A stretch of DNA of 64,000 bases from Escherichia coli (GTDB lineage: Bacteria; Pseudomonadota; Gammaproteobacteria; Enterobacterales; Enterobacteriaceae): NCBI RefSeq assembly GCF_009931435.1, contig NZ_CP043414.1. One strand, 5' to 3'. This document shows positions 1 to 47,288 of the stretch, one piece after another (the stretch's first letter is position 1; the number at the start of each line of letters is the position of its first letter). The notes under the pieces are model-generated. The model worked only from the letters and a program-made list of their open reading frames with translations, was not told the DNA's origin and ran no database searches. Both the position numbers and the translations under genes were made by a program.

Positions 1-1104
1 GCGGAAGAGAAAAGCCTCGAAACGCTGACCCGCACCATCACTGAAACCAGCGATCAACAGGTCAGTTGGGAAACCATTCCGCTGATCGAGCCCATCAGTT
101 TAAGCCTCGGTTACAAGCTGGTGGCGCTGGTGGACAAAGCGCAGGGCAACCCGCTCACCCAGCGTATTCGCGGCGTGCGGCAGGTGATTTCCGACGGCAA
201 CGGCGTGCTGCTGCCGGAGATCCGCATTCGGGAAAACTTCCGCCTCAAGCCCAGCCAGTACGCCATTTTCATCAACGGCATTAAGGCTGATGAAGCGGAT
301 ATTCCGGCGGATAAACTGATGGCCCTGCCCTCCAGCGAAACCTACGGCGAGATTGACGGCGTGCTGGGGAACGACCCGGCGTACGGGATGCCGGTGACCT
401 GGATTCAGCCCGCGCAGAAGGCGAAGGCGCTGAATATGGGGTATCAGGTGATCGACAGCGCCAGCGTAATTGCCACGCATGTGAATAAGATTGTGCGCAG
501 CTATATTCCTGATTTGTTTAACTATGACGATATTACTCAGCTGCATAACCGTTTGTCGTCAATGGCACCGCGCCTGGCAGAGGATTTGAGTGCGGCGCTG
601 AATTACAGCCAGTTGCTGAAAGTGTACCGGGCACTGCTGACCGAAGGCGTTTCCCTGCGCGATATCGTCACCATCGCCACCGTGCTGGTCGCCAGTAGCA
701 CCGTCACCAAAGATCATATTCTGCTGGCGGCCGATGTGCGCCTGGCACTGCGGCGCAGCATTACCCATCCGTTCGTTCGCAAGCAGGAGCTGACGGTGTA
801 TACGCTGAATAATGAGCTGGAAAATCTGCTGACCAACGTGGTGAATCAGGCGCAACAGGCCGGCAAAGTGATGCTCGATAGCGTGCCGGTTGACCCAAAT
901 ATGCTCAACCAGTTCCAGAGCACGATGCCGCAGGTGAAGGAGCAGATGAAAGCGGCAGGTAAAGACCCGGTGCTGCTGGTGCCGCCGCAGCTGCGCCCGT
1001 TGCTGGCGCGTTATGCGAGGTTATTTGCGCCGGGGTTGCATGTGCTGTCGTATAACGAAGTGCCGGACGAGCTGGAGTTGAAGATTATGGGGGCGTTGAG
1101 TTGA
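1..1104 (+). CDS. lfhA: FlhA-family flagellar export protein, C-terminal portion (Flag-2 LfhA-like); open at window start, may be a remnant
   Basis: ORF 121..1104 is in a frame that stays open back to base 1; translation resembles the FlhA cytoplasmic domain; sits next to yafL/dinJ as lfhA does in K-12. Confidence 0.6.
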   Translation, partial: AEEKSLETLTRTITETSDQQVSWETIPLIEPISLSLGYKLVALVDKAQGNPLTQRIRGVRQVISDGNGVLLPEIRIRENFRLKPSQYAIFINGIKADEADIPADKLMALPSSETYGEIDGVLGNDPAYGMPVTWIQPAQKAKALNMGYQVIDSASVIATHVNKIVRSYIPDLFNYDDITQLHNRLSSMAPRLAEDLSAALNYSQLLKVYRALLTEGVSLRDIVTIATVLVASSTVTKDHILLAADVRLALRRSITHPFVRKQELTVYTLNNELENLLTNVVNQAQQAGKVMLDSVPVDPNMLNQFQSTMPQVKEQMKAAGKDPVLLVPPQLRPLLARYARLFAPGLHVLSYNEVPDELELKIMGALS

Positions 1105-1858: not shown

Positions 1859-2608
1859 TTACAAAATCGTCTCTTCCGTCAAAATCCGCCGCGCGCCTAA
1901 AAAATGATCCTGCCAGAAAGGTTCAGCTAACCGACTTACCCGAATGGTTTCCCCGGTGCGCGGCGACTCGATAAACTGACCGTCTCCCAGATACACGCCC
2001 ATATGGTCGGCAATCTCGCGGCTGTGAATATGGAAAAACAGCAAATCTCCCCGGCGCAGGTCGTTATTTGCCACAATGGTTGCCCGACGGTAGTGATACA
2101 TCTCATTGGCCGTGCGCGGGAGTTTCGCCTCGAGGATCTTGTTGTAGGCATAAAAAACCAACCCGCTACAGTCGAAGCCTTTATCAGGCCGCGTACCTCC
2201 CCAGACGTAAGGCTTACCAAGCTGCTGCTCCAGACGGTGAATCGCTACTTCGGTGATGTTATGCAGATGGTCGCTGCTTAAGAAATGGTTGTTTTCCGCC
2301 AGCGCCTGCCAATGTTTATCGCTCAACTTCAACGGTGCAGGGAACCACTCAGGATGCTGTTTTATCTGCTCCCGGTTGTGCTGGCGCAGCGCCCTTCTGC
2401 TTTGTGCATCGCCTTCCACAATGTAGCTGGCCTGTTTTTTCAGATGCGCGTGGTATCGCTTTAGCAATCGCGTACGGTTTTGCATCCGCTGGCGGGCGGC
2501 GTAGCTGAAAGAGATATGTGATGCGGTGGCGCTGGCAAATGAAGAAAACGGCAAGCAAAGCAACAATAATCCCGACAACACAAAAGAGGGAATCGACGGC
2601 AAAGACAT
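1859..2608 (-). CDS. yafL: NlpC/P60-family lipoprotein peptidase YafL
   Basis: ORF 1859..2668; start moved to the internal Met at 2608 (249 aa, MSLPSIPSFV signal); C-terminal Cys/His region typical of NlpC/P60; conserved position. Confidence 0.8.
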   Translation of the reverse strand: MSLPSIPSFVLSGLLLLCLPFSSFASATASHISFSYAARQRMQNRTRLLKRYHAHLKKQASYIVEGDAQSRRALRQHNREQIKQHPEWFPAPLKLSDKHWQALAENNHFLSSDHLHNITEVAIHRLEQQLGKPYVWGGTRPDKGFDCSGLVFYAYNKILEAKLPRTANEMYHYRRATIVANNDLRRGDLLFFHIHSREIADHMGVYLGDGQFIESPRTGETIRVSRLAEPFWQDHFLGARRILTEETIL

Positions 2609-2785
2609 TCTCAATAATGGCTGGTCATGCATTGATGTTGCAGTGTATCCCGGCCCGTACCTGAACAAACTTAATAAACCATTATTATAAAATTAATAAA
2701 TATATTTCAGTTAATTATGTAAAAACATCCGTTTATTAAATTACTCATGGATTGTCGTTGTTGCTCATTTGAGCTACAATTCAAG

Positions 2786-2801
2786 CTGAATAAATATACA
2801 G
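2786..2801 (+). promoter_or_regulatory. Candidate LexA (SOS) box upstream of dinJ
   Basis: ctgaataaatatacag matches CTG-N10-CAG about 17 nt upstream of the dinJ start. Confidence 0.5.
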
Positions 2802-2817
2802 CACAGGAGATACCCCA

Positions 2818-3078
2818 ATGGCTGCTAACGCGTTTGTTCGCGCCCGAATCGATGAAGATCTGAAGAATCAGGCGGCGGACGTACTGGCCGGGATGGGGCT
2901 GACCATCTCTGACCTGGTTCGCATAACCCTCACAAAAGTCGCGCGTGAAAAGGCATTGCCGTTTGATTTACGCGAGCCTAATCAATTAACCATTCAATCA
3001 ATTAAAAACAGCGAAGCTGGCGTTGATGTTCATAAGGCCAAAGACGCCGATGATTTATTTGATCAATTAGGAATTTAA
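2818..3078 (+). CDS. dinJ: DinJ antitoxin
   Basis: 86 aa; MAANAFVRARIDEDLKNQA... matches DinJ; directly followed by yafQ. Confidence 0.9.
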   Translation: MAANAFVRARIDEDLKNQAADVLAGMGLTISDLVRITLTKVAREKALPFDLREPNQLTIQSIKNSEAGVDVHKAKDADDLFDQLGI

Positions 3079-3080
3079 AT

Positions 3081-3359
3081 ATGATTCAAAGGGATATTGA
3101 ATACTCGGGACAATTTTCAAAGGATGTAAAACTTGCACAAAAGCGTCATAATGATATGAATAAATTGAAATATCTTATGACGCTTCTTATCAATAATACT
3201 TTACCACTTCCAGCTGTTTATAAAGACCACCCGCTGCAAGGTTCATGGAAAGGTTATCGCGATGCTCATGTTGAACCGGACTGGATCCTGATTTACAAAC
3301 TTACCGATAAACTTTTACGATTTGAGAGAACTGGAACTCACGCGGCGCTATTTGGGTAA
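3081..3359 (+). CDS. yafQ: YafQ toxin (RelE-family mRNA interferase)
   Basis: 92 aa; starts 3 nt after the dinJ stop; sequence matches YafQ. Confidence 0.9.
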   Translation: MIQRDIEYSGQFSKDVKLAQKRHNDMNKLKYLMTLLINNTLPLPAVYKDHPLQGSWKGYRDAHVEPDWILIYKLTDKLLRFERTGTHAALFG

Positions 3360-6016: not shown

Positions 6017-8461
6017 ATGATGATTTTGAGTATTCTCGCTACGGTTGTCCTGCTCGGCGCGTTGTTCTATCACCGCGTGAGCTTATTTATCAGCAGTCTG
6101 ATTTTGCTCGCCTGGACAGCCGCCCTCGGCGTCGCTGGTCTGTGGTCGGCGTGGGTACTGGTGCCTCTGGCCATTATCCTCGTACCGTTTAACTTTGCGC
6201 CTATGCGTAAGTCGATGATTTCCGCACCGGTATTTCGCGGTTTCCGTAAGGTGATGCCGCCAATGTCGCGCACTGAAAAAGAAGCGATTGATGCAGGCAC
6301 TACCTGGTGGGAAGGCGACTTGTTCCAGGGTAAGCCGGACTGGAAAAAGCTGCATAACTATCCGCAGCCGCGCCTGACCGCTGAAGAGCAAGCGTTTCTC
6401 GACGGCCCGGTAGAAGAAGCCTGCCGGATGGCGAATGATTTCCAGATTACTCATGAGCTGGCGGATCTGCCGCCGGAGTTGTGGGCGTACCTTAAAGAGC
6501 ATCGCTTCTTCGCGATGATCATCAAAAAAGAGTACGGCGGGCTGGAGTTCTCGGCTTATGCCCAATCTCGTGTGCTGCAAAAACTCTCCGGCGTGAGCGG
6601 GATCCTGGCGATTACCGTCGGCGTGCCGAACTCATTAGGCCCGGGCGAGCTGCTGCAACATTACGGCACTGACGAGCAGAAAAATCACTATCTGCCGCGT
6701 CTGGCGCGTGGTCAGGAGATCCCTTGCTTTGCACTGACCAGCCCGGAAGCGGGTTCCGATGCGGGCGCGATTCCGGATACCGGGATTGTCTGCATGGGCG
6801 AGTGGCAGGGCCAGCAGGTGCTGGGGATGCGACTGACCTGGAACAAACGCTACATTACGCTCGCGCCAATTGCGACCGTGCTTGGGCTGGCGTTTAAACT
6901 TTCCGACCCGGAAAAACTGCTGGGTGGCGCAGAAGATTTAGGCATTACCTGTGCACTTATCCCGACCACCACGCCAGGCGTGGAAATTGGTCGTCGCCAC
7001 TTCCCGCTGAACGTACCGTTCCAGAACGGACCGACGCGAGGTAAAGATGTCTTCGTACCGATCGACTACATTATCGGCGGACCAAAAATGGCCGGGCAAG
7101 GCTGGCGGATGCTGGTGGAGTGTCTCTCCGTGGGGCGCGGCATCACCCTACCTTCCAACTCAACCGGCGGCGTGAAGTCGGTGGCGCTGGCAACGGGCGC
7201 GTATGCGCACATTCGCCGTCAGTTCAAAATCTCTATCGGTAAGATGGAAGGGATTGAAGAGCCGCTGGCGCGTATTGCCGGTAATGCCTACGTGATGGAT
7301 GCTGCGGCATCGCTGATTACCTACGGCATTATGCTCGGTGAAAAACCTGCCGTGCTGTCGGCTATCGTTAAGTATCACTGTACCCACCGTGGGCAGCAGT
7401 CGATTATTGATGCGATGGATATCACCGGGGGTAAAGGCATTATGCTCGGTCAGAGCAACTTCCTGGCACGAGCTTACCAGGGCGCACCGATTGCCATCAC
7501 CGTTGAAGGGGCCAACATTCTGACCCGCAGCATGATGATCTTCGGTCAGGGAGCGATTCGTTGCCATCCGTACGTGCTGGAAGAGATGGAAGCGGCGAAG
7601 AACAATGACGTAAACGCGTTCGATAAACTGCTGTTCAAACATATCGGTCACGTCGGTAGCAACAAAGTTCGCAGCTTCTGGCTGGGCCTGACGCGCGGTT
7701 TAACCAGCAGCACGCCAACCGGCGATGCCACTAAACGCTACTATCAGCACCTGAACCGCCTGAGCGCCAACCTCGCCCTGCTTTCTGATGTCTCGATGGC
7801 TGTGCTGGGCGGCAGCCTGAAACGTCGCGAGCGTATCTCGGCACGTCTGGGGGATATTTTAAGCCAGCTTTACCTCGCCTCTGCCGTTCTGAAGCGTTAT
7901 GACGACGAAGGCCGTAATGAAGCCGACCTGCCGCTGGTGCACTGGGGCGTACAGGATGCGCTGTATCAGGCAGAGCAGGCGATGGACGATTTACTGCAAA
8001 ACTTCCCGAACCGCGTGGTTGCCGGGCTTCTGAATGTGGTGATCTTCCCGACCGGACGTCATTATCTGGCACCGTCTGACAAGCTGGATCATAAGGTGGC
8101 GAAGATTTTACAAGTGCCGAACGCCACCCGTTCACGTATTGGTCGCGGTCAGTACCTGACCCCGAGCGAGCATAACCCGGTTGGTTTACTGGAAGAGGCG
8201 CTGGTGGATGTGATTGCCGCCGACCCAATTCATCAGCGGATCTGTAAAGAGCTGGGTAAAAACCTGCCGTTTACCCGTCTGGATGAACTGGCGCATAACG
8301 CGCTGGCGAAGGGGCTGATTGATAAAGATGAAGCCGCTATTCTTGTGAAAGCTGAAGAAAGCCGTCTGCGCAGTATTAATGTTGATGACTTTGATCCGGA
8401 AGAGCTGGCGACGAAGCCGGTAAAGTTGCCGGAGAAAGTGCGGAAAGTTGAAGCCGCATAA
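6017..8461 (+). CDS. fadE: Acyl-CoA dehydrogenase FadE
   Basis: ORF 5939..8461 trimmed to the ATG at 6017, giving 814 aa [14 protein letters not shown]...; N-terminal membrane segment plus acyl-CoA dehydrogenase body. Confidence 0.95.
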
Positions 8462-8469
8462 TTGAATAA

Positions 8470-8494
8470 CGGAGCCGAAAGGCTCCGTTTCTTT
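8470..8494. terminator. Hairpin plus T-run between convergent fadE and ivy
   Basis: cggagcc gaaa ggctccg followed by tttcttt. Confidence 0.5.
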
Positions 8495-8503
8495 ATCCGC
8501 TAA

Positions 8504-8977
8504 TTATTTAAAATTAAAGCCATCCGGATGGTTTTCCAGGCTGCCGGTCAACGCCGCGAACAGCACCGTTTTACCATCAATAGAAAGCGCATCGTTCACA
8601 TTCAACCAGGTGAGTTTCTCTTGCGACGTTTTCTCATCAATGGTCGAGAACAGCCCCGTCATCTGATTAGATTTCTCGGACCACATCACAGCGATACGTT
8701 GCGAGCCACAGTCATGCGGTTTGCACGCGCTCATCACCTGATACGTCTCATCTCCCAACGTTACGGTTTGTGCAGGGGTATAAGTCCCGCCTTTCATCAC
8801 CCAGGCAGGCAGCTTATGCCCTTGTACCATCTGATTAAATGCAGCTTTGGTGGTTTCGCCCTTTGCAAGGCTGCTAATGGTTAAATCATCCTGCGCCATT
8901 GCACTGGTGGCGATGACCAGAGCGGCGACTGTCGTTATTGCCTTAAACATCATTCCTCCCGAGCTTATCCTGCCCAT
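8504..8977 (-). CDS. ivy: Inhibitor of vertebrate lysozyme Ivy
   Basis: 157 aa with signal peptide and the CKPHDCG loop characteristic of Ivy. Confidence 0.9.
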   Translation of the reverse strand: MGRISSGGMMFKAITTVAALVIATSAMAQDDLTISSLAKGETTKAAFNQMVQGHKLPAWVMKGGTYTPAQTVTLGDETYQVMSACKPHDCGSQRIAVMWSEKSNQMTGLFSTIDEKTSQEKLTWLNVNDALSIDGKTVLFAALTGSLENHPDGFNFK

Positions 8978-22417: not shown

Positions 22418-24559
22418 TCAAAATTGCCGCATATCCGGCATTCCGGGGGGTAAATCTTTCGGCACAGGCGCATCCGGCACAGGTTGTGTGGCACCACAGT
22501 TCCAGTTAATCACCGGCGCATCACCGTTCACATCCGACTCCCCTTCCAGATGAATGTGCGTACCATTAAGAAATATGCTTCCGTCCTTCGTCAGCACCAG
22601 CCTTGCCTTACCACAGCAGAGTTCAAGATGCTCACCGGCAGAATAAACTGCTGTTTGTCCGGTGTTTTCCTTCATCGTCTTGCCCACCGAGAAGGTGACG
22701 TTATTCCCTACATTGACGCTGTAGCCCATTCCCACCATCAGTGATTTATGCAGCCCTACCTGTGAGGACTGCAACAACGCCACCGAGGTATTCATAATGC
22801 CGCCTACCGTCGTCTGGTAAGCCACGCCCACCGTCAGCGCACGAATGATCCCCACCTTTTCAACCTGGTTTGATCCCACTTTGATAATCTGGTTACTGCC
22901 CACCGTTTCCACCTGGTTGACACCAACCGTCTGTATCTGATTAACGCCAATGTTCTGGATCTGGTTATTGGTAACGGTGATCGCCTGGTTGTTACCTATT
23001 TTTTCGGCATGGTTGTTTATCACATCAGTGGTGCGGTTATTCAGCACCTCGGTGTTCATGTTCTTCTGCGCGTGGATGTAGACCTGTTCTTTCCCTGTCG
23101 CATCGTCAAACTTCAGTTCATTAAACCCGCTGCCCTTATAGGTTTTCGAACGAATGGTCATCTGCGTCTTTGTTCCCGGCAGGCTGCCGGGGGTGCGGTT
23201 TTCCTGGTGGTAGGTACGCCCCATAATAATCGGCTGGTCCGGATCGCCGTTGAGGAAGTCCACAATGACCTCCTGACCCACACGCGGTATCGCCAGGTTA
23301 CCAAACCCGGTGCCTGCCCACGCCTGTGCCACACGGATCCAGCATGAACTGTCCTGGTTTGACGGGTTATAACGGTCCCAGTTAAATTTCACCCGCACGC
23401 GGCCATGTTCATCACAGAAGATTTCTTCTCCTGCCGGTCCCGTCACGACGGCGCTCTGCGGGCCATCCACCAGCGGTTTCAGCAACGGCTGTGGCCGCCA
23501 TGTTCTGTCTGCCGGTATTACCGCAAAGTGGTTATTCAGCGTGGTACCTGAACCCCTGCGTCCCGGCACCGCCTGCGGCTGCTCGCCGTGCAGTTCACTT
23601 GCCACCACCTGCCATTCCCGGTTCAGGTTCGCCTGCGGATGCCCCGTCAGCGCAATTCGCCGTCCCGGCCATATCTCCGGAGAACGGCTTGTTCCGCGCG
23701 CCACTTCTGCGTTGTTTCGCCAGCCATCCATCTGCCAGCGGGCAAAGTTCTGCCCGTGGGCACCCTTGAAACGTCCGGGGTAGTCATACACTTCATACTG
23801 TGTGCGCTGGTAATCCTGGTACTGGCCTTCCTGATCAAAACGCCCTGCCCAGCCGGGTCGTTTAAAGGTGTAGTCCTTGGTCACCACGGAAGAAGGGCGG
23901 ATTTGTGCGCTGTAGCGGAACTGGCTGATGCATAGGGTGCTCACCTCGGTACGGGTGTTCGGATTCCAGGGGATCTCAAAGGACTCCGGCAGATAACGCA
24001 CGGTGTCGCACAGGACCAGGCTCTGGTCGGTACTTTTTTGCGCGTGCTCCTCATAAAAGAAGATGCCTTCCTCCGCCGCCATCCGGCACAGGAAATCGTA
24101 ATCGGTTTCGCCGTACTGGACACAAAACTCACGGGAAGGATGCGGCTCGCTGAACAGCGGACTCCACTCGGTCACCCCGTTTTCTTTCAGGATCGTCGCG
24201 AGTATGCTTTCGATGTCCTCATTCTGGAAGATACGGAAGTTCTGGCGCAGCCCTGTGCGCCACAGCGGTGGGCATACCTTCATGCTGTACAGCATCTGGT
24301 TTTTGTCGTTCTCCCCCAGTTCAAACCAGGTCACCACACCTTTCACCCGGCGCTGTACGTCATCGCCCTGCCATATCGTCAGGTAGGCCATTTTGTCCAG
24401 CACCTGCGCAAATTCAAGGGAGAGAAACTGCTGGCTGACCAGAGAGAGATCGAGGGAAAAGAGCGAAGAGAGTGACTGGTTCAGATGAAAGGAGACCACC
24501 GCAAACGCGTCCGGTGGCAGGCCGTCCACTTCCAGCGTGAAACGTAATCCGGTTGACAT
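22418..24559 (-). CDS. vgrG: T6SS spike protein VgrG (TssI)
   Basis: 713 aa; gp27/gp5-like VgrG body with a short Pro-rich C-terminal tail; 75 nt upstream of rhs-B. Confidence 0.95.
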   Translation of the reverse strand: MSTGLRFTLEVDGLPPDAFAVVSFHLNQSLSSLFSLDLSLVSQQFLSLEFAQVLDKMAYLTIWQGDDVQRRVKGVVTWFELGENDKNQMLYSMKVCPPLWRTGLRQNFRIFQNEDIESILATILKENGVTEWSPLFSEPHPSREFCVQYGETDYDFLCRMAAEEGIFFYEEHAQKSTDQSLVLCDTVRYLPESFEIPWNPNTRTEVSTLCISQFRYSAQIRPSSVVTKDYTFKRPGWAGRFDQEGQYQDYQRTQYEVYDYPGRFKGAHGQNFARWQMDGWRNNAEVARGTSRSPEIWPGRRIALTGHPQANLNREWQVVASELHGEQPQAVPGRRGSGTTLNNHFAVIPADRTWRPQPLLKPLVDGPQSAVVTGPAGEEIFCDEHGRVRVKFNWDRYNPSNQDSSCWIRVAQAWAGTGFGNLAIPRVGQEVIVDFLNGDPDQPIIMGRTYHQENRTPGSLPGTKTQMTIRSKTYKGSGFNELKFDDATGKEQVYIHAQKNMNTEVLNNRTTDVINNHAEKIGNNQAITVTNNQIQNIGVNQIQTVGVNQVETVGSNQIIKVGSNQVEKVGIIRALTVGVAYQTTVGGIMNTSVALLQSSQVGLHKSLMVGMGYSVNVGNNVTFSVGKTMKENTGQTAVYSAGEHLELCCGKARLVLTKDGSIFLNGTHIHLEGESDVNGDAPVINWNCGATQPVPDAPVPKDLPPGMPDMRQF

Positions 24560-24721
24560 AGCAACCTCCGGGTTTAAGGAAAAACAGACAGTTCGCTGTT
24601 AAAGCGGCTGTAACAGTACAGTGTTACGCTTGCGTTCAGGCACGCTACCGCCGAAGTTTCCGGCATCCGCCATCTCCCGTGAACGTAACCCCTTACTGAC
24701 AACCTTTCTTTTTACGGCGTA

Positions 24722-24760
24722 ATACAAAAACAGCATCCGGCCTGATAGCCGGATGCTGTT
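24722..24760 (-). terminator. Rho-independent terminator downstream of hcp, before vgrG
   Basis: Perfect inverted repeat cagcatccggc / gccggatgctg; minus strand reads hairpin then TTTTTG. Confidence 0.6.
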
Positions 24761-24768
24761 GGCTTAAC

Positions 24769-25287
24769 TTATGCTTCCAGCGGTGCGCGCCAGTCGTCGG
24801 CACCGGAGGTGCCAGATTTGACGTGTTCCCACTCAATCTTGCGGTAGGCCAGTGAAACTTCGAGCAACTGGGTGAACTCGCGTTTCGCCGGGTCCTGGCA
24901 ATGCGGCATATGCAGTTTCATATCGACAATCGTCGAATCAGTCAGGCGGGTGGTGAAATAATGCTCCTGTTTGCCTTCCACAGATGTACGCCACCAGTGC
25001 AGTTCAGTGGTTGGCAGCATTTCACCGGAGGCCAGTGCGTTGTACATCAGCGGAACCGCTTTGTTCAGCGCCACGGTAAAAATGAACGGCTTGTGAGCAC
25101 GCTGACCCGCAGGCTGACCGGACTGAGGATCGGTCGGGACAGTAACGTTATGCAGGAATTCCTGCACCAGCATCTCGTCTTCGTGCCCCTGCACATAGAT
25201 GTTGCCGACAGAATCAGCGGTAAATGCACCTGCAGTAATATTTCCCTGGGTCTGACCAGTGATGGAGATATAACACGGTGTTGGCAT
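24769..25287 (-). CDS. hcp: T6SS tube protein Hcp (TssD), copy 1
   Basis: 172 aa Hcp-family protein; divergently arranged from tssB. Confidence 0.9.
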   Translation of the reverse strand: MPTPCYISITGQTQGNITAGAFTADSVGNIYVQGHEDEMLVQEFLHNVTVPTDPQSGQPAGQRAHKPFIFTVALNKAVPLMYNALASGEMLPTTELHWWRTSVEGKQEHYFTTRLTDSTIVDMKLHMPHCQDPAKREFTQLLEVSLAYRKIEWEHVKSGTSGADDWRAPLEA

Positions 25288-25584
25288 TTGTAAACTCCTT
25301 GTTAACGTGGTTAATTACTACTTACAATGACCTGCCGTTAATCCCAGACAGGCAGATGCAGCTCACTTCACGGAACCGCATCATTTTTCAGTATTTTTTA
25401 CATACAAACCGAGCTAGAATTTACGGTTGTCGTAAAAACTATTTTTAAAATCATTAAATCTCTTATTCAGCAATAACTTAATAATATATATCTGGATAAC
25501 TATACCCAACTGTTCAAAGTCCGTATTGCCTCCATAAAATGGCCAAAGCTGAATCATGAATAAATATTGTATTTATCCTTTCTG

Positions 25585-25603
25585 AATTATCATTTTGATA
25601 ATT
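25585..25603. promoter_or_regulatory. Candidate Fur box: perfect palindrome in the hcp-tssB divergent intergenic region
   Basis: aattatca ttt tgataatt is a perfect inverted repeat built from GATAAT-like hexamers in a very AT-rich 700 bp intergenic region. Confidence 0.4.
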
Positions 25604-25982
25604 TTTGAGATATTCCTTAAAAATACCCACTTACTCAATCACAAAACAAATATATAAACAAGCAATCATTAGATTAGCTTATGTTTAATGAAATTATTAT
25701 ATACTTCAATAAGATACATAAAAACTCTATATTTAAATTATTGCCATAATACACCTGACGCGAATTGCACAGGTTCACACAATCTATTTAACGCTTGCAG
25801 AATACCCCTCTTTACGATCGATAAAAAGTCCTTTTCTTATTTATTTTGAAGCGTAAAATGCGGGGTGATGAAGGAGTGGTGATTTTATTTTCACCGCCAT
25901 CAAGGCGGCATTTCCGATATTTTTTGCGGTACAAATATGCTGTGTTCATGGCCTGTACGAGATAACATGACGGATCACTTTT

Positions 25983-26483
25983 ATGAGCAAAAAATTTGAA
26001 GGCAGCGTCGCGCCTCGCGAGCGTATTAATATATCGTATGTCCCAAAAACAGATGGCCAGACGGCTGAAGTGGAACTTCCGCTTAACATGCTCGTTGTCG
26101 GCGATACCGGAAATACGCAGGAAACATCCTCACTGGATGAACGTCAGGCAGTTTCCGTTAACAAGCACAATTTCGGTGCAGTGATGGCTGAAGCAGCCAT
26201 TGGCCTCAATTTTACCGTCCCCGCCACGCTGAAGGGAAGCACAACGGACGATGAACTGAATGTGGCGCTGAATATCAAGTCACTGGATGATTTTTCACCA
26301 GATAGCGTGGCCCGGCAGGTTCCGGAAGTGAATAAATTGCTGGAATTACGTGAAGCACTGACTGCACTGAAGGGGCCGATGGGTAACCTTCCGGCATTCC
26401 GTACCCAGCTCCAGGCATTGCTGGAAAATGAAGAGTCCCGCGAGCAGTTGCTCAAAGAAATCGGCCAGGTGAGCAATAAATAA
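25983..26483 (+). CDS. tssB: T6SS contractile sheath small subunit TssB (VipA)
   Basis: 166 aa; typical TssB sequence; first gene of the plus-strand operon. Confidence 0.9.
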   Translation: MSKKFEGSVAPRERINISYVPKTDGQTAEVELPLNMLVVGDTGNTQETSSLDERQAVSVNKHNFGAVMAEAAIGLNFTVPATLKGSTTDDELNVALNIKSLDDFSPDSVARQVPEVNKLLELREALTALKGPMGNLPAFRTQLQALLENEESREQLLKEIGQVSNK

Positions 26484-26517
26484 CCACCACTATTTCATTA
26501 AACAGGGTTATCCAGGC

Positions 26518-26742
26518 ATGACGGCACACAAAAATATCTCCGGGACATACCACCTCTCTGTTGCAGACATTCTGCAGGTGGTTTACCAGGTATGTTTCAG
26601 CCCGTCCGTTGAAATCAACCAGGATGGTGTGGCTGCGCTGATTACAACACTGGATCGCCGTATCAGTGATCTATTGGATGAGATTATCCATTTTTGTGAG
26701 TTTCAGCAGAGCGCGTCGCACTGGCAGCGCGTACTTCACTGA
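26518..26742 (+). pseudogene. TssC-like N-terminal fragment (74 codons) between tssB and tssC
   Basis: Translation ...NQDGVAALITTLDRRISDLLDEIIHFCEFQQSASHWQRV parallels TssC residues ...NKLAVDSMIADIDERISRQMDVIIHAPAFQQVESFWRSL; fills an unusual 310 nt tssB-tssC gap. Confidence 0.45.
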
Positions 26743-26792
26743 CGGCGAAAAGCCGGTTTCAGAAACACAGCTAAAACAGAAGGATTTTCAGT

Positions 26793-28268
26793 ATGTCTTT
26801 ACAGGAAGAGGAACTCGTTTCCAGTCATGCCGGGCAGCCTGAGCAGGCATCGTCGCTGCTTGATCAAATCATGGCACAGACCCGTATTCAGCCCGGTTCG
26901 GAAGGTTATGACGTTGCCCGCCAGGGTGTGACAGCCTTTATTGCCAGCATCCTGCAATCCACTGCATCTGCCGAACCGGTCAATAAACTGGCCGTGGACA
27001 GCATGATTGCAGATATTGATGAACGCATCAGCCGCCAGATGGATGTCATCATCCATGCGCCTGCCTTTCAGCAGGTCGAGTCGTTCTGGCGCTCACTGAA
27101 AACCATGGTGGATCGCGTTGATTTCCGTGAAAACATCAAGGTCAACGTGCTTCATGTCACCAAGCAGGAACTTCTGGAAGACTTTGAGTTTGCGCCAGAA
27201 ATTATTCAGTCCGGATTTTATAAGCACGTTTATTCGTCCGGTTTCGGACAGTTTGGCGGTGAACCCATCGCTGCCGTGCTGGGCGCTTATGAGTTCAAAA
27301 ATACCGCGCCTGACATGAAACTGCTGCAATACGTCAGTGCCGTGGGCGCAATGGCGCACGCACCGTTCCTGTCCTCCGTTTCCCCGGAGTTTATGGGGCT
27401 GAACTCGTGGACCGAACTGCCTAATATCAAAGATCTTTATGCCATCTTTGAAGGTCCGGCCTACACCAAATGGCGCGCCCTGCGTGACTCGGAAGATTCG
27501 CGCTATTTAGGGCTTACGGCACCCCGCTTCCTGCTTCGCCAGCCCTATTCACCAACAGATAACCCTGTTAAGAACTTTAACTATTACGAAGATGTCAGCC
27601 AGAACCACGAAGATTATCTGTGGGGTAATACGGCCTGGATGCTGGCATGCAATATCGCAGACAGTTTTGCCAAATACCGCTGGTGTCCAAACATTATCGG
27701 TCCGCAAAGCGGCGGCGCAGTGAAAGATCTGCCGGTGCATCTGTTCGAAACGATGGGGCAGATTCAGGCCAAAATCCCAACCGAGGTGCTGGTCACCGAT
27801 CGCCGCGAATTTGAACTGGCTGAAGAGGGTTTTATCACCCTTACCATGCGTAAAGACTCTGATAATGCAGCCTTTTTCTCTGCAAACTCGGTACAAAAAC
27901 CGAAGCACTTTCCGGGAAAAGATGCAGAAACCAACTATAAGCTGGGTACGCAGCTTCCTTATCTCTTCATCATCAATCGGTTAGCGCACTACATCAAGGT
28001 GTTGCAGCGTGAACAACTGGGGTCATGGAAAGAAAGGAGCGACTTAGAAAGAGAGCTTAATACCTGGATCCGTCAGTATGTTGCCGACCAGGAAAACCCG
28101 CCTGCAGACGTGCGCAGCCGCAAACCTCTGCGCGCTGCCAAAGTTGAGGTTATGGATGTAGAAGGCGAACCCGGCTGGTACCAGGTTGCGCTAAGCGTGA
28201 GACCTCATTTTAAATTTATGGGGGCAAATTTTGAGCTTTCCCTGGTTGGCCGGTTAGACAGGGAGTAA
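26793..28268 (+). CDS. tssC: T6SS contractile sheath large subunit TssC (VipB)
   Basis: 491 aa; typical TssC sequence. Confidence 0.95.
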   Translation: MSLQEEELVSSHAGQPEQASSLLDQIMAQTRIQPGSEGYDVARQGVTAFIASILQSTASAEPVNKLAVDSMIADIDERISRQMDVIIHAPAFQQVESFWRSLKTMVDRVDFRENIKVNVLHVTKQELLEDFEFAPEIIQSGFYKHVYSSGFGQFGGEPIAAVLGAYEFKNTAPDMKLLQYVSAVGAMAHAPFLSSVSPEFMGLNSWTELPNIKDLYAIFEGPAYTKWRALRDSEDSRYLGLTAPRFLLRQPYSPTDNPVKNFNYYEDVSQNHEDYLWGNTAWMLACNIADSFAKYRWCPNIIGPQSGGAVKDLPVHLFETMGQIQAKIPTEVLVTDRREFELAEEGFITLTMRKDSDNAAFFSANSVQKPKHFPGKDAETNYKLGTQLPYLFIINRLAHYIKVLQREQLGSWKERSDLERELNTWIRQYVADQENPPADVRSRKPLRAAKVEVMDVEGEPGWYQVALSVRPHFKFMGANFELSLVGRLDRE

Positions 28269-46820: not shown

Positions 46821-47288
46821 ATGTGTTTACATGTTAAATTGAAAGAGTTTCTTTCGATGTTTTTTATAGCCATGTTATTTTTCCCTGCATTCAATGCTTC
46901 TTTGTTTTTTACCGGAATTAAACCTCTATACTCAATAATAAAAGGCTCCACGGAAATATTTTATGATTGGAGAATGTTGATTCTATTCTTCGGTTTCATA
47001 TCGTTTTCCTTGTTAAATATTCATGTAATTTTACTAACGATAATAAAATCATTCTTAATAAAAAAAACAAAGGTAATCAATTTCGCCACAAACATAACAA
47101 TACAGCTAACTCTTATATTTTTACTAATAGCTATCGTAATAGCACCTTTAATAGCTCCTTTTGTCACAGGATATGTCAATGCTAATTATCACCTCTGCGG
47201 TAATAACACGGGGATTTTCCCAGGAGCAATCTATATTAAAAATGGCATGGAATGTAATAATGATTATATTTCTCACAAGGAAGATTAA
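46821..47288 (+). CDS. Candidate immunity protein: small polytopic inner-membrane protein
   Basis: 155 aa with about four hydrophobic helices; AT-rich; 10 nt after the candidate effector. Confidence 0.4.
   Translation: MCLHVKLKEFLSMFFIAMLFFPAFNASLFFTGIKPLYSIIKGSTEIFYDWRMLILFFGFISFSLLNIHVILLTIIKSFLIKKTKVINFATNITIQLTLIFLLIAIVIAPLIAPFVTGYVNANYHLCGNNTGIFPGAIYIKNGMECNNDYISHKED

What the first reader, a model, noticed from the sequence alone, without database searches (positions are those of the whole stretch)
25288..25982. Long AT-rich divergent control region between hcp and tssB with a Fur-box-like palindrome
The 695 bp between the divergent hcp and tssB starts is extremely AT-rich, typical of silenced horizontally acquired promoters. 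It contains the perfect 19 bp palindrome aattatcattttgataatt (25585..25603) built from GATAAT-like hexamers. This suggests iron-responsive control of the secretion machinery. No sigma-54 activator gene (a vasH equivalent) is present, so regulation must differ from vasH-dependent clusters.
Basis: partly seen in the sequence, partly recalled or inferred. Interest (0 to 1): 0.55.

Follow-up and report, generated by a model that had tools for sequence, protein, structure and literature searches.

The report
H-NS-silenced T6SS-2 divergent promoter region
This is the already-studied, AT-rich control region between the two halves of the common E. coli type VI secretion island; it is silenced by H-NS, and its small palindrome only superficially resembles an iron-regulator (Fur) site, so the finding is ordinary.

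Summary
The window is an E. coli chromosome carrying the aspV-inserted T6SS-2 island. The 695-bp hcp|tssB spacer (25288-25982) is real, has 32.8% GC against 52.2% for the window, and is the window's most AT-rich stretch. It is 98% identical to the EHEC EDL933/Sakai "t6sP" bidirectional promoter, which is published as H-NS-repressed.

The palindrome exists but is 8+3+8, not a perfect 19-mer. Its two perfect GATAAT hexamers face tail-to-tail (ATTATC-N5-GATAAT), not in the Fur arrangement.

A Fur matrix built from 15 footprinted K-12 sites scores it 8.3 bits, and 73% of shuffles reach that. A verified sci1 Fur box scores no better (8.0), so the matrix alone decides nothing.

The symmetry is not conserved. 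The left arm is broken in E. albertii. The palindrome is absent in Yokenella, Citrobacter and the APEC/B2 T6SS-2 variant.

Published Fur ChIP-exo lists no peak at or near this spacer in Sakai, W or KO11FL, all carriers of this island type. In a W fur deletion, tssB and hcp change less than 2-fold, not significantly.

Verdict: known H-NS-silenced promoter region; Fur control not supported.

The parts
25288..25982 (.). hcp|tssB divergent intergenic control region of E. coli T6SS-2, called 't6sP' in EHEC EDL933
   Evidence: 695 bp, 32.8% GC. It is 98.1% identical to EDL933 and found in 2228-2269 of 5426 complete E. coli genomes. Published as an H-NS-repressed bidirectional promoter.
24769..25287 (-). 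hcp (Hcp3 / 'hcp2B'-type), first gene of the hcp-vgrG-rhs effector arm
   Evidence: 172-aa ORF. Annotated as an Hcp family T6SS effector in near-identical records.
25983..26483 (+). tssB, first gene of the structural operon that runs from tssB to the second hcp
   Evidence: 166-aa ORF. RefSeq annotation tssB. Reported to be a single polycistronic operon in EHEC.
25585..25603 (.). Imperfect inverted repeat: arms 25585-25592 AATTATCA and 25596-25603 TGATAATT around a TTT centre. It holds ATTATC (25586-25591) and GATAAT (25597-25602) tail-to-tail.
   Evidence: 16/19 positions self-complementary. Fur matrix score 8.3 bits and 12/19 to the consensus, at chance level. The left arm is not conserved in E. 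albertii, and one E. coli-like MAG carries A25592G.
25548..25578 (.). Conserved central block GCTGAATCATGAATAAATATTGTATTTATCC. It may hold a minus-strand -10 (TACAAT, 25571 to 25566) for hcp.
   Evidence: Best-conserved part of the spacer's centre across the five lineages aligned. Consensus promoter scan gives -35 ATGATA and -10 TACAAT on the minus strand. The promoter role is inferred, because I could not obtain transcription start data.
25591..25612 (.). Conserved block CATTTTGATAATTTTTGAGATA, covering the right arm and its flank
   Evidence: Identical in E. albertii, partly kept in the E. coli 21AR0303 variant, absent in Yokenella and C. youngae. It overlaps a 2-mismatch match to the H-NS motif TCGATAAATT and a -35-like TTGATA.
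25798..25813 (+). Conserved upstream box CAGAATACCCCTCTTT, a candidate activator site. It contains the NarL-type heptamer TACCCCT at 25803-25809.
   Evidence: Conserved in all six T6SS-2 lineages aligned, including the APEC/B2 type. Heptamer match. NarL/NarP sites were also predicted in this region by PMC13141884. Function is inferred.
25823..25836 (+). Conserved box AAAAAGTCCTTTTC, sitting where the -35 of the putative tssB promoter would be
   Evidence: Conserved in all six lineages. It is a poor match to TTGACA, which suggests an activator-dependent promoter. Inferred.
25854..25859 (+). -10-like hexamer TAAAAT (TAGAAT in two lineages), the putative tssB core promoter. The predicted start is near 25866.
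   Evidence: GCGTAAAATG is nearly invariant across six lineages. Inferred, with no transcription start data to hand.
25331..25355 (-). Hairpin in the hcp leader with the loop GGGAUUAA
   Evidence: Sequence is conserved across lineages, but the consensus fold shows little covariation: 1 of 8 pairs is compensatory. The leader as a whole folds no better than shuffles (z -1.3). Weak.
25440..25458 (.). Best Fur-matrix hit in the spacer (TATTTTTAAAATCATTAAA, 9.4 bits), at chance level
   Evidence: the mean best score in shuffles is 10.1 bits. The best 6-bp-phased cluster is 19.5, reached by 13% of shuffles.
24560..24768 (-). hcp-vgrG spacer, the published 'h3R' regulatory segment
   Evidence: Coordinates. 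Its role as terminator, promoter and hcp mRNA stabiliser is reported in PMC13141884.

Best explanation
The 695-bp stretch is the bidirectional control region of the E. coli T6SS-2 island, the same element as 't6sP' of EHEC O157:H7. Two operons leave it in opposite directions: hcp-vgrG-rhs to the left and the structural operon starting at tssB to the right.

Shown in EHEC: its very low GC makes it a target of the xenogeneic silencer H-NS, which keeps both directions almost off in the laboratory.

Inferred: release needs removal of H-NS plus at least one further positive input. That input most likely acts on the promoter-proximal module that is conserved in every T6SS-2 lineage just upstream of tssB (25798-25859). 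Post-transcriptional controls act downstream of that.

The palindrome at 25585-25603 is a real 8+3+8 inverted repeat in the middle of the region, but it is not a Fur operator. Its two GATAAT hexamers are tail-to-tail with a 5-nt gap, each half-site lacks a partner, and the symmetry is not conserved. Fur is not seen there in vivo, and deleting fur does not significantly change the flanking genes. It is most likely an incidental product of AT-rich sequence. Its right half belongs to a conserved AT-rich block of unknown role.
For: Identity:
- 98.1% identical to the EDL933 spacer, with the same gene order and the same aspV location.

H-NS silencing, published for EHEC:
- Average T6SS RPKM is 5.7 against a genome mean of 198. 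Deleting hns raises transcripts, reported as 60-fold for Z0264, and complementation reverses it.
- Reporters of both directions are active only in the hns deletion.
- The APEC variant is also H-NS-repressed.

Composition:
- 32.8% GC overall and 27.6% in the core, the lowest in the window.

Against Fur, from sequence:
- The matrix built from 15 footprinted or gel-shifted K-12 sites scores its own sites 11-23.5 bits and the palindrome 8.3 bits. 73% of shuffles reach 8.3.
- The 7-1-7 partner of each half-site matches only 1/7 and 3/7 (from the sequence; one search lists the 4-mismatch hit).
- Only two hexamers are present. Two-hexamer constructs bind Fur only weakly at high protein concentration (Chen 2007).
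- The left arm is disrupted in E. albertii. The palindrome is absent from Yokenella, C. youngae and the B2/APEC variant.

Against Fur, from published experiments:
- Fur ChIP-exo, iron-replete and dipyridyl. Sakai: no peak between 193,075 and 288,115, and the spacer is at 263,438-264,133 with the palindrome intact. W: none between 190,105 and 358,916, and the spacer is at 260,316-261,012 with the palindrome intact. KO11FL: none between 233,946 and 286,589.
- The same study does call Fur peaks within or beside the T6SS-1 cluster of strain 042, and further peaks nearby that I take to be its T6SS-3 cluster, so the method does see Fur at T6SS clusters.
- RNA-seq of a W fur deletion: tssB log2FC +0.94 (p 0.19), hcp +0.66 (p 0.18), vgrG -0.03, against fhuA +2.18 (p 4e-211).

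Conserved tssB-proximal module.
Against: - The matrix cannot exclude weak Fur binding. The experimentally verified sci1 fur1 box scores only 8.0 bits.
- The ChIP-exo tables list no peak exactly on that verified box. The nearest is about 0.7 kb upstream, so sensitivity is imperfect.
- tssB and hcp are the two genes of the cluster with the largest increases in the W fur deletion, although both are non-significant.
- In an EHEC hns deletion, T6SS proteins appear in DMEM or modified M9 but not in LB. Iron limitation could in principle explain this pattern.
- Two perfect hexamers this close together are nominally rare (1.4% of shuffles, post hoc).
- The 59 bp around the palindrome are identical in 1964 of 2228 E. 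coli carriers.
- I found no direct H-NS binding data (ChIP or EMSA) for this spacer.
- I could not obtain the transcription start sites of Kim et al. 2022.
Confidence: 0.8

Rival explanations
1. One reading: the palindrome is a low-affinity Fur operator that makes T6SS-2 iron-responsive. Fur-Fe would sit between the divergent promoters and add repression on top of H-NS, so its effect would show only once H-NS is removed.
For: - Two perfect GATAAT-type hexamers lie 5 nt apart, seen in 1.4% of shuffles (post hoc).
- The matrix score (8.3 bits) equals that of the verified sci1 fur1 box (8.0 bits).
- Fur represses T6SS-1 in EAEC and APEC.
- In an EHEC hns deletion, T6SS proteins are seen in DMEM or modified M9 but not in LB.
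- tssB and hcp rise 1.6-1.9-fold in a W fur deletion, not significantly.
Against: - The score is at chance level for this composition (73% of shuffles).
- The arrangement is tail-to-tail R-N5-F rather than F-x-R, and each half-site has no partner (and the sequence).
- Only two hexamers are present.
- The palindrome is not conserved in E. albertii, Yokenella, Citrobacter or the B2 variant.
- No Fur ChIP-exo peak is listed in Sakai, W or KO11FL.
- The fur-deletion effect is not significant.
- The site lies 297 bp from the hcp ATG and 380 bp from the tssB ATG, and about 260 bp upstream of the conserved tssB promoter module.
- The sister T6SS-2 variant is unaffected by iron limitation or fur deletion.
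Confidence: 0.07
2. The palindrome, or only its conserved right half, is a functional element unrelated to Fur. Options are back-to-back -35-like hexamers of divergent promoters (TTGATA on the plus strand, ATGATA on the minus strand), an H-NS nucleation or IHF-type architectural site, or the operator of an unidentified dimeric regulator.
For: - The consensus scan places a minus-strand promoter (-35 ATGATA at 25593-25588, -10 TACAAT at 25571-25566) and a plus-strand -35 TTGATA at 25595-25600 on the two arms.
- In the 21AR0303 variant the corresponding minus-strand hexamers read GTGACA and TATAAT with the same 16-nt spacing (from the alignment).
- Blocks 25548-25578 and 25591-25612 are the best-conserved central parts of the spacer within Escherichia.
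- The right arm is a 2-mismatch match to the H-NS motif TCGATAAATT.
- The reverse strand reads TATCAAAATGATA, one mismatch from the IHF core WATCARNNNNTTR (from the sequence).
Against: - The promoter scan finds no more sites than shuffles do: 5 against 3.7 +/- 2.3.
- The 4-nt insertion in E. albertii moves the putative -35 out of register.
- IHF-like matches are not enriched (6 against 3.2; 11% of shuffles reach 6).
- The two-fold symmetry is not conserved, which argues against a dimeric operator.
- In the APEC variant, a fragment of about 210 bp next to hcp already has promoter activity.
Confidence: 0.13

Closest known systems
EHEC O157:H7 EDL933/Sakai T6SS-2 bidirectional promoter 't6sP' (between Z0264/tssB and hcp3). 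Sources: Wan 2017 (PMC5363993), Kim 2022 (J Microbiol 60:928), Vazquez-Lopez 2026 (PMC13141884).
   Same: It is the same element. The spacer is 98.1% identical with the same flanking genes and the same aspV island. It is H-NS-repressed, is reported to have several transcription starts, and no inducing condition is known.
   Different: 13 differences over 695 bp (11 substitutions and a 1-nt indel with an adjacent substitution), none within 25502-25633.
EAEC sci1 (T6SS-1) promoter with the Fur/Dam epigenetic switch (Brunet 2011, PMC3145626)
   Same: An AT-rich promoter upstream of tssB in an E. coli T6SS, with weak matches to the Fur consensus (11/19 and 13/19). Its matrix score is similar to the palindrome's.
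   Different: - It is a different T6SS family and there is no sequence similarity.
- The sci1 fur1 box overlaps a perfect TATAAT -10 about 80 bp from the ATG and contains a GATC site.
- Here the repeat lies 297-380 bp from the start codons and has no GATC. The nearest are at 25816 and 25973.
- Fur binding and iron response are shown for sci1. Published genome-wide data list no Fur peak here, and fur deletion causes no significant change.
APEC/ExPEC (B2-type) T6SS2 hcp2B|vipA2 divergent region (Ma 2018, PMC5874247; CpxR study, PMC6534853)
   Same: It sits at the same chromosomal locus with the same architecture, and has a 702-705-bp spacer of 31% GC. It shares the conserved tssB-proximal module. 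It is H-NS-repressed.
   Different: - The spacer is largely unalignable with this one and lacks the palindrome.
- That variant has been shown experimentally to be unaffected by iron limitation and fur deletion, and to be activated by CpxR at hcp2B.
- Those results therefore do not transfer directly to the window's variant.
VasH/sigma-54-dependent T6SS promoters (Vibrio cholerae type)
   Same: They control hcp and structural T6SS operons.
   Different: There is no enhancer-binding protein gene and no -24/-12 element here.

Membership tests
Fur operator / Fur-regulated promoter | Match to the 19-bp (9-1-9) or 7-1-7 Fur box above what the local composition gives | tested here: not met
   8.3 bits and 12/19 to the consensus. 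73% of shuffles reach that score, and the mean best score in shuffles is 10.1 bits. Footprinted sites have a leave-one-out median of 18 bits. Caveat: the verified sci1 fur1 box scores only 8.0 bits.
Fur operator / Fur-regulated promoter | At least three contiguous GATAAT hexamers, or an F-x-R (head-to-head) pair forming a dimer site | tested here: not met
   Two hexamers only, arranged ATTATC-N5-GATAAT (tail-to-tail). The 7-mer partner of each half-site matches 1/7 and 3/7 (sequence). Two-hexamer constructs bind only weakly.
Fur operator / Fur-regulated promoter | Overlap with the -35/-10 of the regulated promoter | tested here: inconclusive
   A consensus scan puts weak -35-like hexamers on both arms. 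I could not obtain the transcription starts. The conserved tssB promoter module lies about 260 bp away.
Fur operator / Fur-regulated promoter | Fur occupancy in vivo | tested here: not met
   Published ChIP-exo tables show no peak within tens of kb of the spacer in Sakai, W or KO11FL, in iron-replete or starved cells. Peaks are called in or beside the T6SS-1 cluster of 042, and further peaks nearby. The sensitivity limit is noted elsewhere in this report.
Fur operator / Fur-regulated promoter | Derepression in a fur mutant or under iron limitation | tested here: inconclusive
   W fur deletion against wild type: tssB +0.94 and hcp +0.66 log2, p 0.18-0.19; the rest of the cluster is near 0. The genes are nearly silent, so H-NS could mask an effect. 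The B2 variant is unaffected.
Fur operator / Fur-regulated promoter | Conservation of the site among orthologous promoters | tested here: not met
   The left arm is broken in E. albertii. The repeat is degraded in the 21AR0303 variant and absent in Yokenella, C. youngae and the B2 type.
H-NS-silenced (xenogeneic) promoter region | AT content far above the genome average, inside a horizontally acquired island | tested here: met
   32.8% GC (27.6% in the core) against 52.2% for the window. The island lies next to tRNA-Asp and is present in about 41% of complete E. coli genomes.
H-NS-silenced (xenogeneic) promoter region | Derepression when hns is deleted | not testable with these tools
   Published for the 98%-identical EHEC spacer: qPCR with complementation and bidirectional reporters.
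H-NS-silenced (xenogeneic) promoter region | Direct H-NS binding to the region (ChIP, EMSA or footprint) | not tested
   I found no such data for this spacer. There are only three 2-mismatch matches to TCGATAAATT.
E. coli T6SS-2 (EHEC type) t6sP | Sequence identity with the EDL933/Sakai spacer and the same flanking genes | tested here: met
   98.1% identity over 695 bp. hcp-vgrG-rhs lies on one side and tssB, a small ORF and tssC on the other.
Sigma-54/VasH-dependent T6SS promoter | Enhancer-binding protein gene in the cluster and a -24/-12 promoter | tested here: not met
   No GAFTGA or GESGTGK motif in six frames of the 64 kb. No TGGCAC-N5-TTGC match with 3 or fewer mismatches.
sci1-type Fur/Dam switch | A GATC site inside the Fur box | tested here: not met
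   GATC occurs only at 25816 and 25973.

The most novel reading that the evidence does not exclude
The inverted repeat is a low-affinity Fur site, or a site for another metal- or nutrient-sensing dimer, that acts only after H-NS has been displaced. This second lock would explain why an EHEC hns deletion makes T6SS-2 proteins in DMEM or minimal medium but not in LB. It would also explain the small, non-significant rise of tssB and hcp in a fur mutant.
Probability: 0.06. Interest if true: 0.4.

Novelty: already known. Interest (0 to 1): 0.12.

Why it matters
T6SS-2 is the most common type VI system in E. coli and the only one in EHEC O157:H7, and nobody has yet found the signal that switches it on. 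If Fur and iron were that signal, the system could be studied in the laboratory.

The evidence here says they are not. Attention is better directed at the promoter-proximal module upstream of tssB that is conserved in all lineages, and at the post-transcriptional blocks already reported. As it stands, the finding re-describes a known H-NS-silenced promoter region.

Tried and rejected
- Fur matrix as a decisive test. It was built and run. Calibration on the verified sci1 fur1 box (8.0 bits) showed that it cannot separate weak real sites from AT-rich background. I use it only to say the palindrome is no better than chance.
- Transferring the APEC 'Fur-independent' result. Primer mapping shows that work used the B2-type spacer, which lacks the palindrome, so it is only indirect evidence.
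- Strains Crooks and BL21 as ChIP controls. Crooks has pco/sil genes in place of the T6SS at this locus. BL21's dapD-pepD interval (~68 kb) seems too short to hold the island. Neither is informative.
- Rfam scan of 24500-26900: no match.
- Folding of the leaders: no better than shuffles, z -1.0 and -1.3.
- hcp-leader hairpin: little covariation.
- RfaH ops element, sigma-54, CRP and SlyA: no convincing matches. CpxR, FNR and PhoP gave only degenerate 2-3-mismatch hits. ArgR-like matches are numerous and degenerate.
- Sources I could not obtain: Kim et al. 2022 (5'-RACE of this promoter), the supplements of Chen 2007 and Sy 2020, and Seo 2014.
- Genome-contig scan with TssB: it returned only four loci, so the comparative set is small.

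Full report
**What the window is**

The window is an E. coli chromosome. The 901 bases around the finding match 2269 of 5426 complete E. coli genomes, nearly all at 95-99.7% identity. The annotation of the best match shows an island inserted next to tRNA-Asp (aspV). On one side lie rhs, vgrG and hcp. On the other lie tssB, a small ORF, tssC, tssE, tssF, tssG, tagH, tssJ, tssK, tssL, tssH, vasI, tssA, tssM, vasL and a second hcp. This is E. coli T6SS-2. The spacer is 98.1% identical to that of EHEC O157:H7 EDL933, and the EDL933 and Sakai spacers are identical to each other.

**Checking the observation**

The hcp ORF runs 24769-25287 on the minus strand and tssB runs 25983-26483 on the plus strand. 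That leaves 695 bp between them. GC is 32.8% for the spacer and 27.6% for 25381-25840, against 52.2% for the window, and the lowest-GC 400-bp stretches of the whole window fall here.

The string AATTATCATTTTGATAATT is at 25585-25603, but it is not a perfect palindrome. It has two 8-nt arms around TTT, and 16 of 19 positions are self-complementary. An 8-nt-arm inverted repeat with a short spacer turns up in 12.7% of dinucleotide shuffles of the spacer. The pair of perfect GATAAT/ATTATC hexamers it contains is rarer, at 1.4% of shuffles, but I chose that statistic after seeing the site.

**Is it a Fur box? Evidence from the sequence**

I took the footprint coordinates of Chen et al. 2007, fetched those K-12 promoters, and built a symmetric 19-bp matrix from 15 footprinted or gel-shifted sites. 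It recovers the textbook consensus.

- Its own sites score 11-23.5 bits, with a leave-one-out median of 18.
- The palindrome scores 8.3 bits, and the best 19-mer in the spacer scores 9.4 bits (at 25440).
- 73% of shuffles reach 8.3 bits, and the mean best score in shuffles is 10.1 bits.
- A statistic for phased clusters of sites gives 19.5 for the spacer, reached by 13% of shuffles and not centred on the palindrome. Most true Fur regions score 37-48.

The arrangement is also wrong. A Fur dimer site is GATAAT-n-ATTATC, head-to-head. Here the order is ATTATC-N5-GATAAT. The sequences that would have to partner each half-site in a 7-1-7 motif match only 1/7 and 3/7. Only two hexamers are present, and two-hexamer constructs gave only weak Fur binding at high protein concentration.

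**Calibrating the matrix**

To test whether the matrix can reject anything, I scored the EAEC sci1 promoter, where Fur binding is proven. Its fur1 box (TATAATGATCAAAATTAAA, over the -10 and the BclI site) scores only 8.0 bits. The matrix therefore shows that the palindrome is no better than chance. It cannot by itself exclude weak binding.

**Conservation**

A TssB-based scan of one genome per species found few relatives. Together with two divergent E. coli variants, this gives six lineages.

- In E. albertii a 4-nt insertion and substitutions destroy the left arm, while CATTTTGATAATTTTTGAGATA is kept.
- The 21AR0303 variant reads AATTGTCACTTTGATAAAA.
- Yokenella and Citrobacter youngae have nothing comparable.
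- An E. coli-like MAG carries A25592G inside the repeat.
- Within E. coli the surrounding 59 bp are identical in 1964 of 2228 carriers. Given about 98% overall identity, this says little.

The two-fold symmetry is therefore not under visible selection. What is conserved in all lineages, including the APEC/B2 type, lies elsewhere: CAGAATACCCCTCTTT (25798-25813), AAAAAGTCCTTTTC (25823-25836) and GCGTAAAAT, with a -10-like TAAAAT at 25854-25859. I read this as the tssB core promoter with an upstream activator site. That is an inference.

**Published experiments that bear on Fur**

Ma et al. 2018 found that iron limitation and fur deletion do not change APEC T6SS2 (clpV2, hcp2B), whereas hns deletion does. 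Mapping the APEC primers shows that this work used the B2-type spacer. All five primers match locus L018 exactly and none matches the window. That spacer lacks the palindrome, so the result is only indirect evidence.

Direct evidence comes from Gao et al. 2023. They ran Fur ChIP-exo on nine strains in M9 glucose with 0.1 mM FeCl2 or 0.2 mM dipyridyl, and RNA-seq of wild type against fur deletion with FeCl2.

| Strain | Spacer position | Palindrome | Listed Fur peaks on either side |
|---|---|---|---|
| Sakai | 263,438-264,133 | intact | 193,075 and 288,115 |
| W | 260,316-261,012 (98.6% identical to the window) | intact | 190,105 and 358,916 |
| KO11FL | not mapped (derivative of W) | not checked | 233,946 and 286,589 |

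No peak is listed between those coordinates in any of the three strains. The same tables do list Fur peaks in strain 042, some within or beside its T6SS-1 cluster and others nearby that I take to lie in its T6SS-3 cluster. The method therefore does detect Fur at T6SS clusters. However, none of the 042 peaks sits exactly on the verified fur1 box, so sensitivity is not perfect.

In the W fur deletion, the log2 changes are:

- tssB +0.94 (p 0.19)
- hcp +0.66 (p 0.18)
- vgrG -0.03
- tssC +0.25
- tssH +0.28
- fhuA +2.18 (p 4e-211), for comparison

The T6SS changes are not significant, and all those genes are at near-background expression.

**What the region is**

For the EHEC spacer, hns deletion raises T6SS transcripts, reported as 60-fold for Z0264, and complementation reverses this. 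Fluorescent reporters for both directions are silent in wild type and active in the hns deletion, more strongly toward hcp. The 2026 study calls the region an 'unknown bidirectional promoter'. It found no medium that induces it in wild type. It predicted sites for ArgP, CysB, CytR, Fis, LeuO and NarL/NarP, but not for Fur. It showed further controls downstream, in the hcp-vgrG spacer 'h3R'. Kim et al. 2022 are cited there as reporting several transcription starts, but I could not read that paper.

In the hns deletion, T6SS proteins appear in DMEM or modified M9 but not in LB. This is the one observation that an iron-responsive second layer could explain, so I keep that reading alive at low probability.

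**The sigma-54 claim**

No enhancer-binding-protein signature (GAFTGA, GESGTGK) occurs in any frame of the window. None is annotated in the island. The spacer has no -24/-12 match.

**Verdict**

The coordinates, the AT-richness and the presence of the repeat are confirmed, but 'perfect palindrome' is not. The 'silenced foreign promoter' and 'no VasH' readings are supported and are already in the literature. The Fur and iron reading rests on a superficial hexamer resemblance, and the hexamer arrangement, the lack of conservation and the published in vivo data all argue against it. It is not formally excluded. The element is already known.

Noticed in passing
window 47256-47274: The best Fur-matrix hit in the whole window is here, not in the hcp|tssB spacer: AATAATGATTATATTTCTC, 16.4 bits, phased-cluster score 31-37. 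It lies inside AT-rich cargo ORFs (DUF1311 and hypothetical proteins) between the second hcp and tRNA-Asp. Published ChIP-exo lists no Fur peak in this interval in Sakai or W, but whether those strains carry this site was not checked.
   Followed up: partly
window 25798-25859: A promoter-like module is conserved in all six T6SS-2 lineages compared, including the otherwise unalignable APEC/B2 spacer. It consists of CAGAATACCCCTCTTT (with the NarL-type heptamer TACCCCT), AAAAAGTCCTTTTC and GCGTAAAAT. It is the likeliest seat of positive control of the tssB operon.
   Followed up: partly
window 25860-25912: About 53 nt of the tssB leader (two small hairpins, GGTGA...TCACC and CCGCC...GGCGG) are present in the three Escherichia spacers of that alignment (window type, E. 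albertii, 21AR0303 variant) but missing in Yokenella and Citrobacter youngae. The leader folds no better than shuffles (z -1.0).
   Followed up: partly
window 25331-25355 (minus strand): The hcp leader has a hairpin with the loop GGGAUUAA, a GGA in a loop as in CsrA sites. A second GGA lies in the AAGGAG ribosome-binding site. Covariation support is weak. This could relate to the published finding that hcp3 mRNA rises without protein.
   Followed up: partly
window 26518-26742: A 74-aa ORF lies between tssB and tssC. It is annotated as hypothetical in RefSeq and is present in the window-type island. It is absent in the 21AR0303 and B2/APEC variants, where tssC follows tssB directly.
   Followed up: no
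L018 (UPEC129) 2508-3212 and L023 (strain 042) 8117-8818: E. coli carries at least three diverged versions of T6SS-2 at or near the same locus: window/EHEC type, 21AR0303 type and B2/APEC type. Their spacers are of similar length (682-705 bp) and AT content but are mostly unalignable. Published APEC regulation data (CpxR, Fur-independence) belong to the B2 type only.
   Followed up: yes
window 1-760 and strains W, 042 and ATCC 8739 (L022-L024): The window starts with a truncated flhA of the Flag-2 cluster. Strains with an intact Flag-2 cluster encode a sigma-54-interaction protein about 20-25 kb from the T6SS-2 island, but it belongs to the flagellar cluster. In ATCC 8739 the T6SS-2 island is replaced by IS elements and a pco/sil copper-silver island.
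   Followed up: partly
L020 (strain 042) about 12105 and 19253: In the published Fur ChIP-exo tables for 042, no peak lies on the verified sci1 fur1/fur2 boxes. One lies about 0.7 kb upstream inside a small ORF, and another lies between hcp and tssH. This is a caution about peak calling and sensitivity in that data set.
   Followed up: partly
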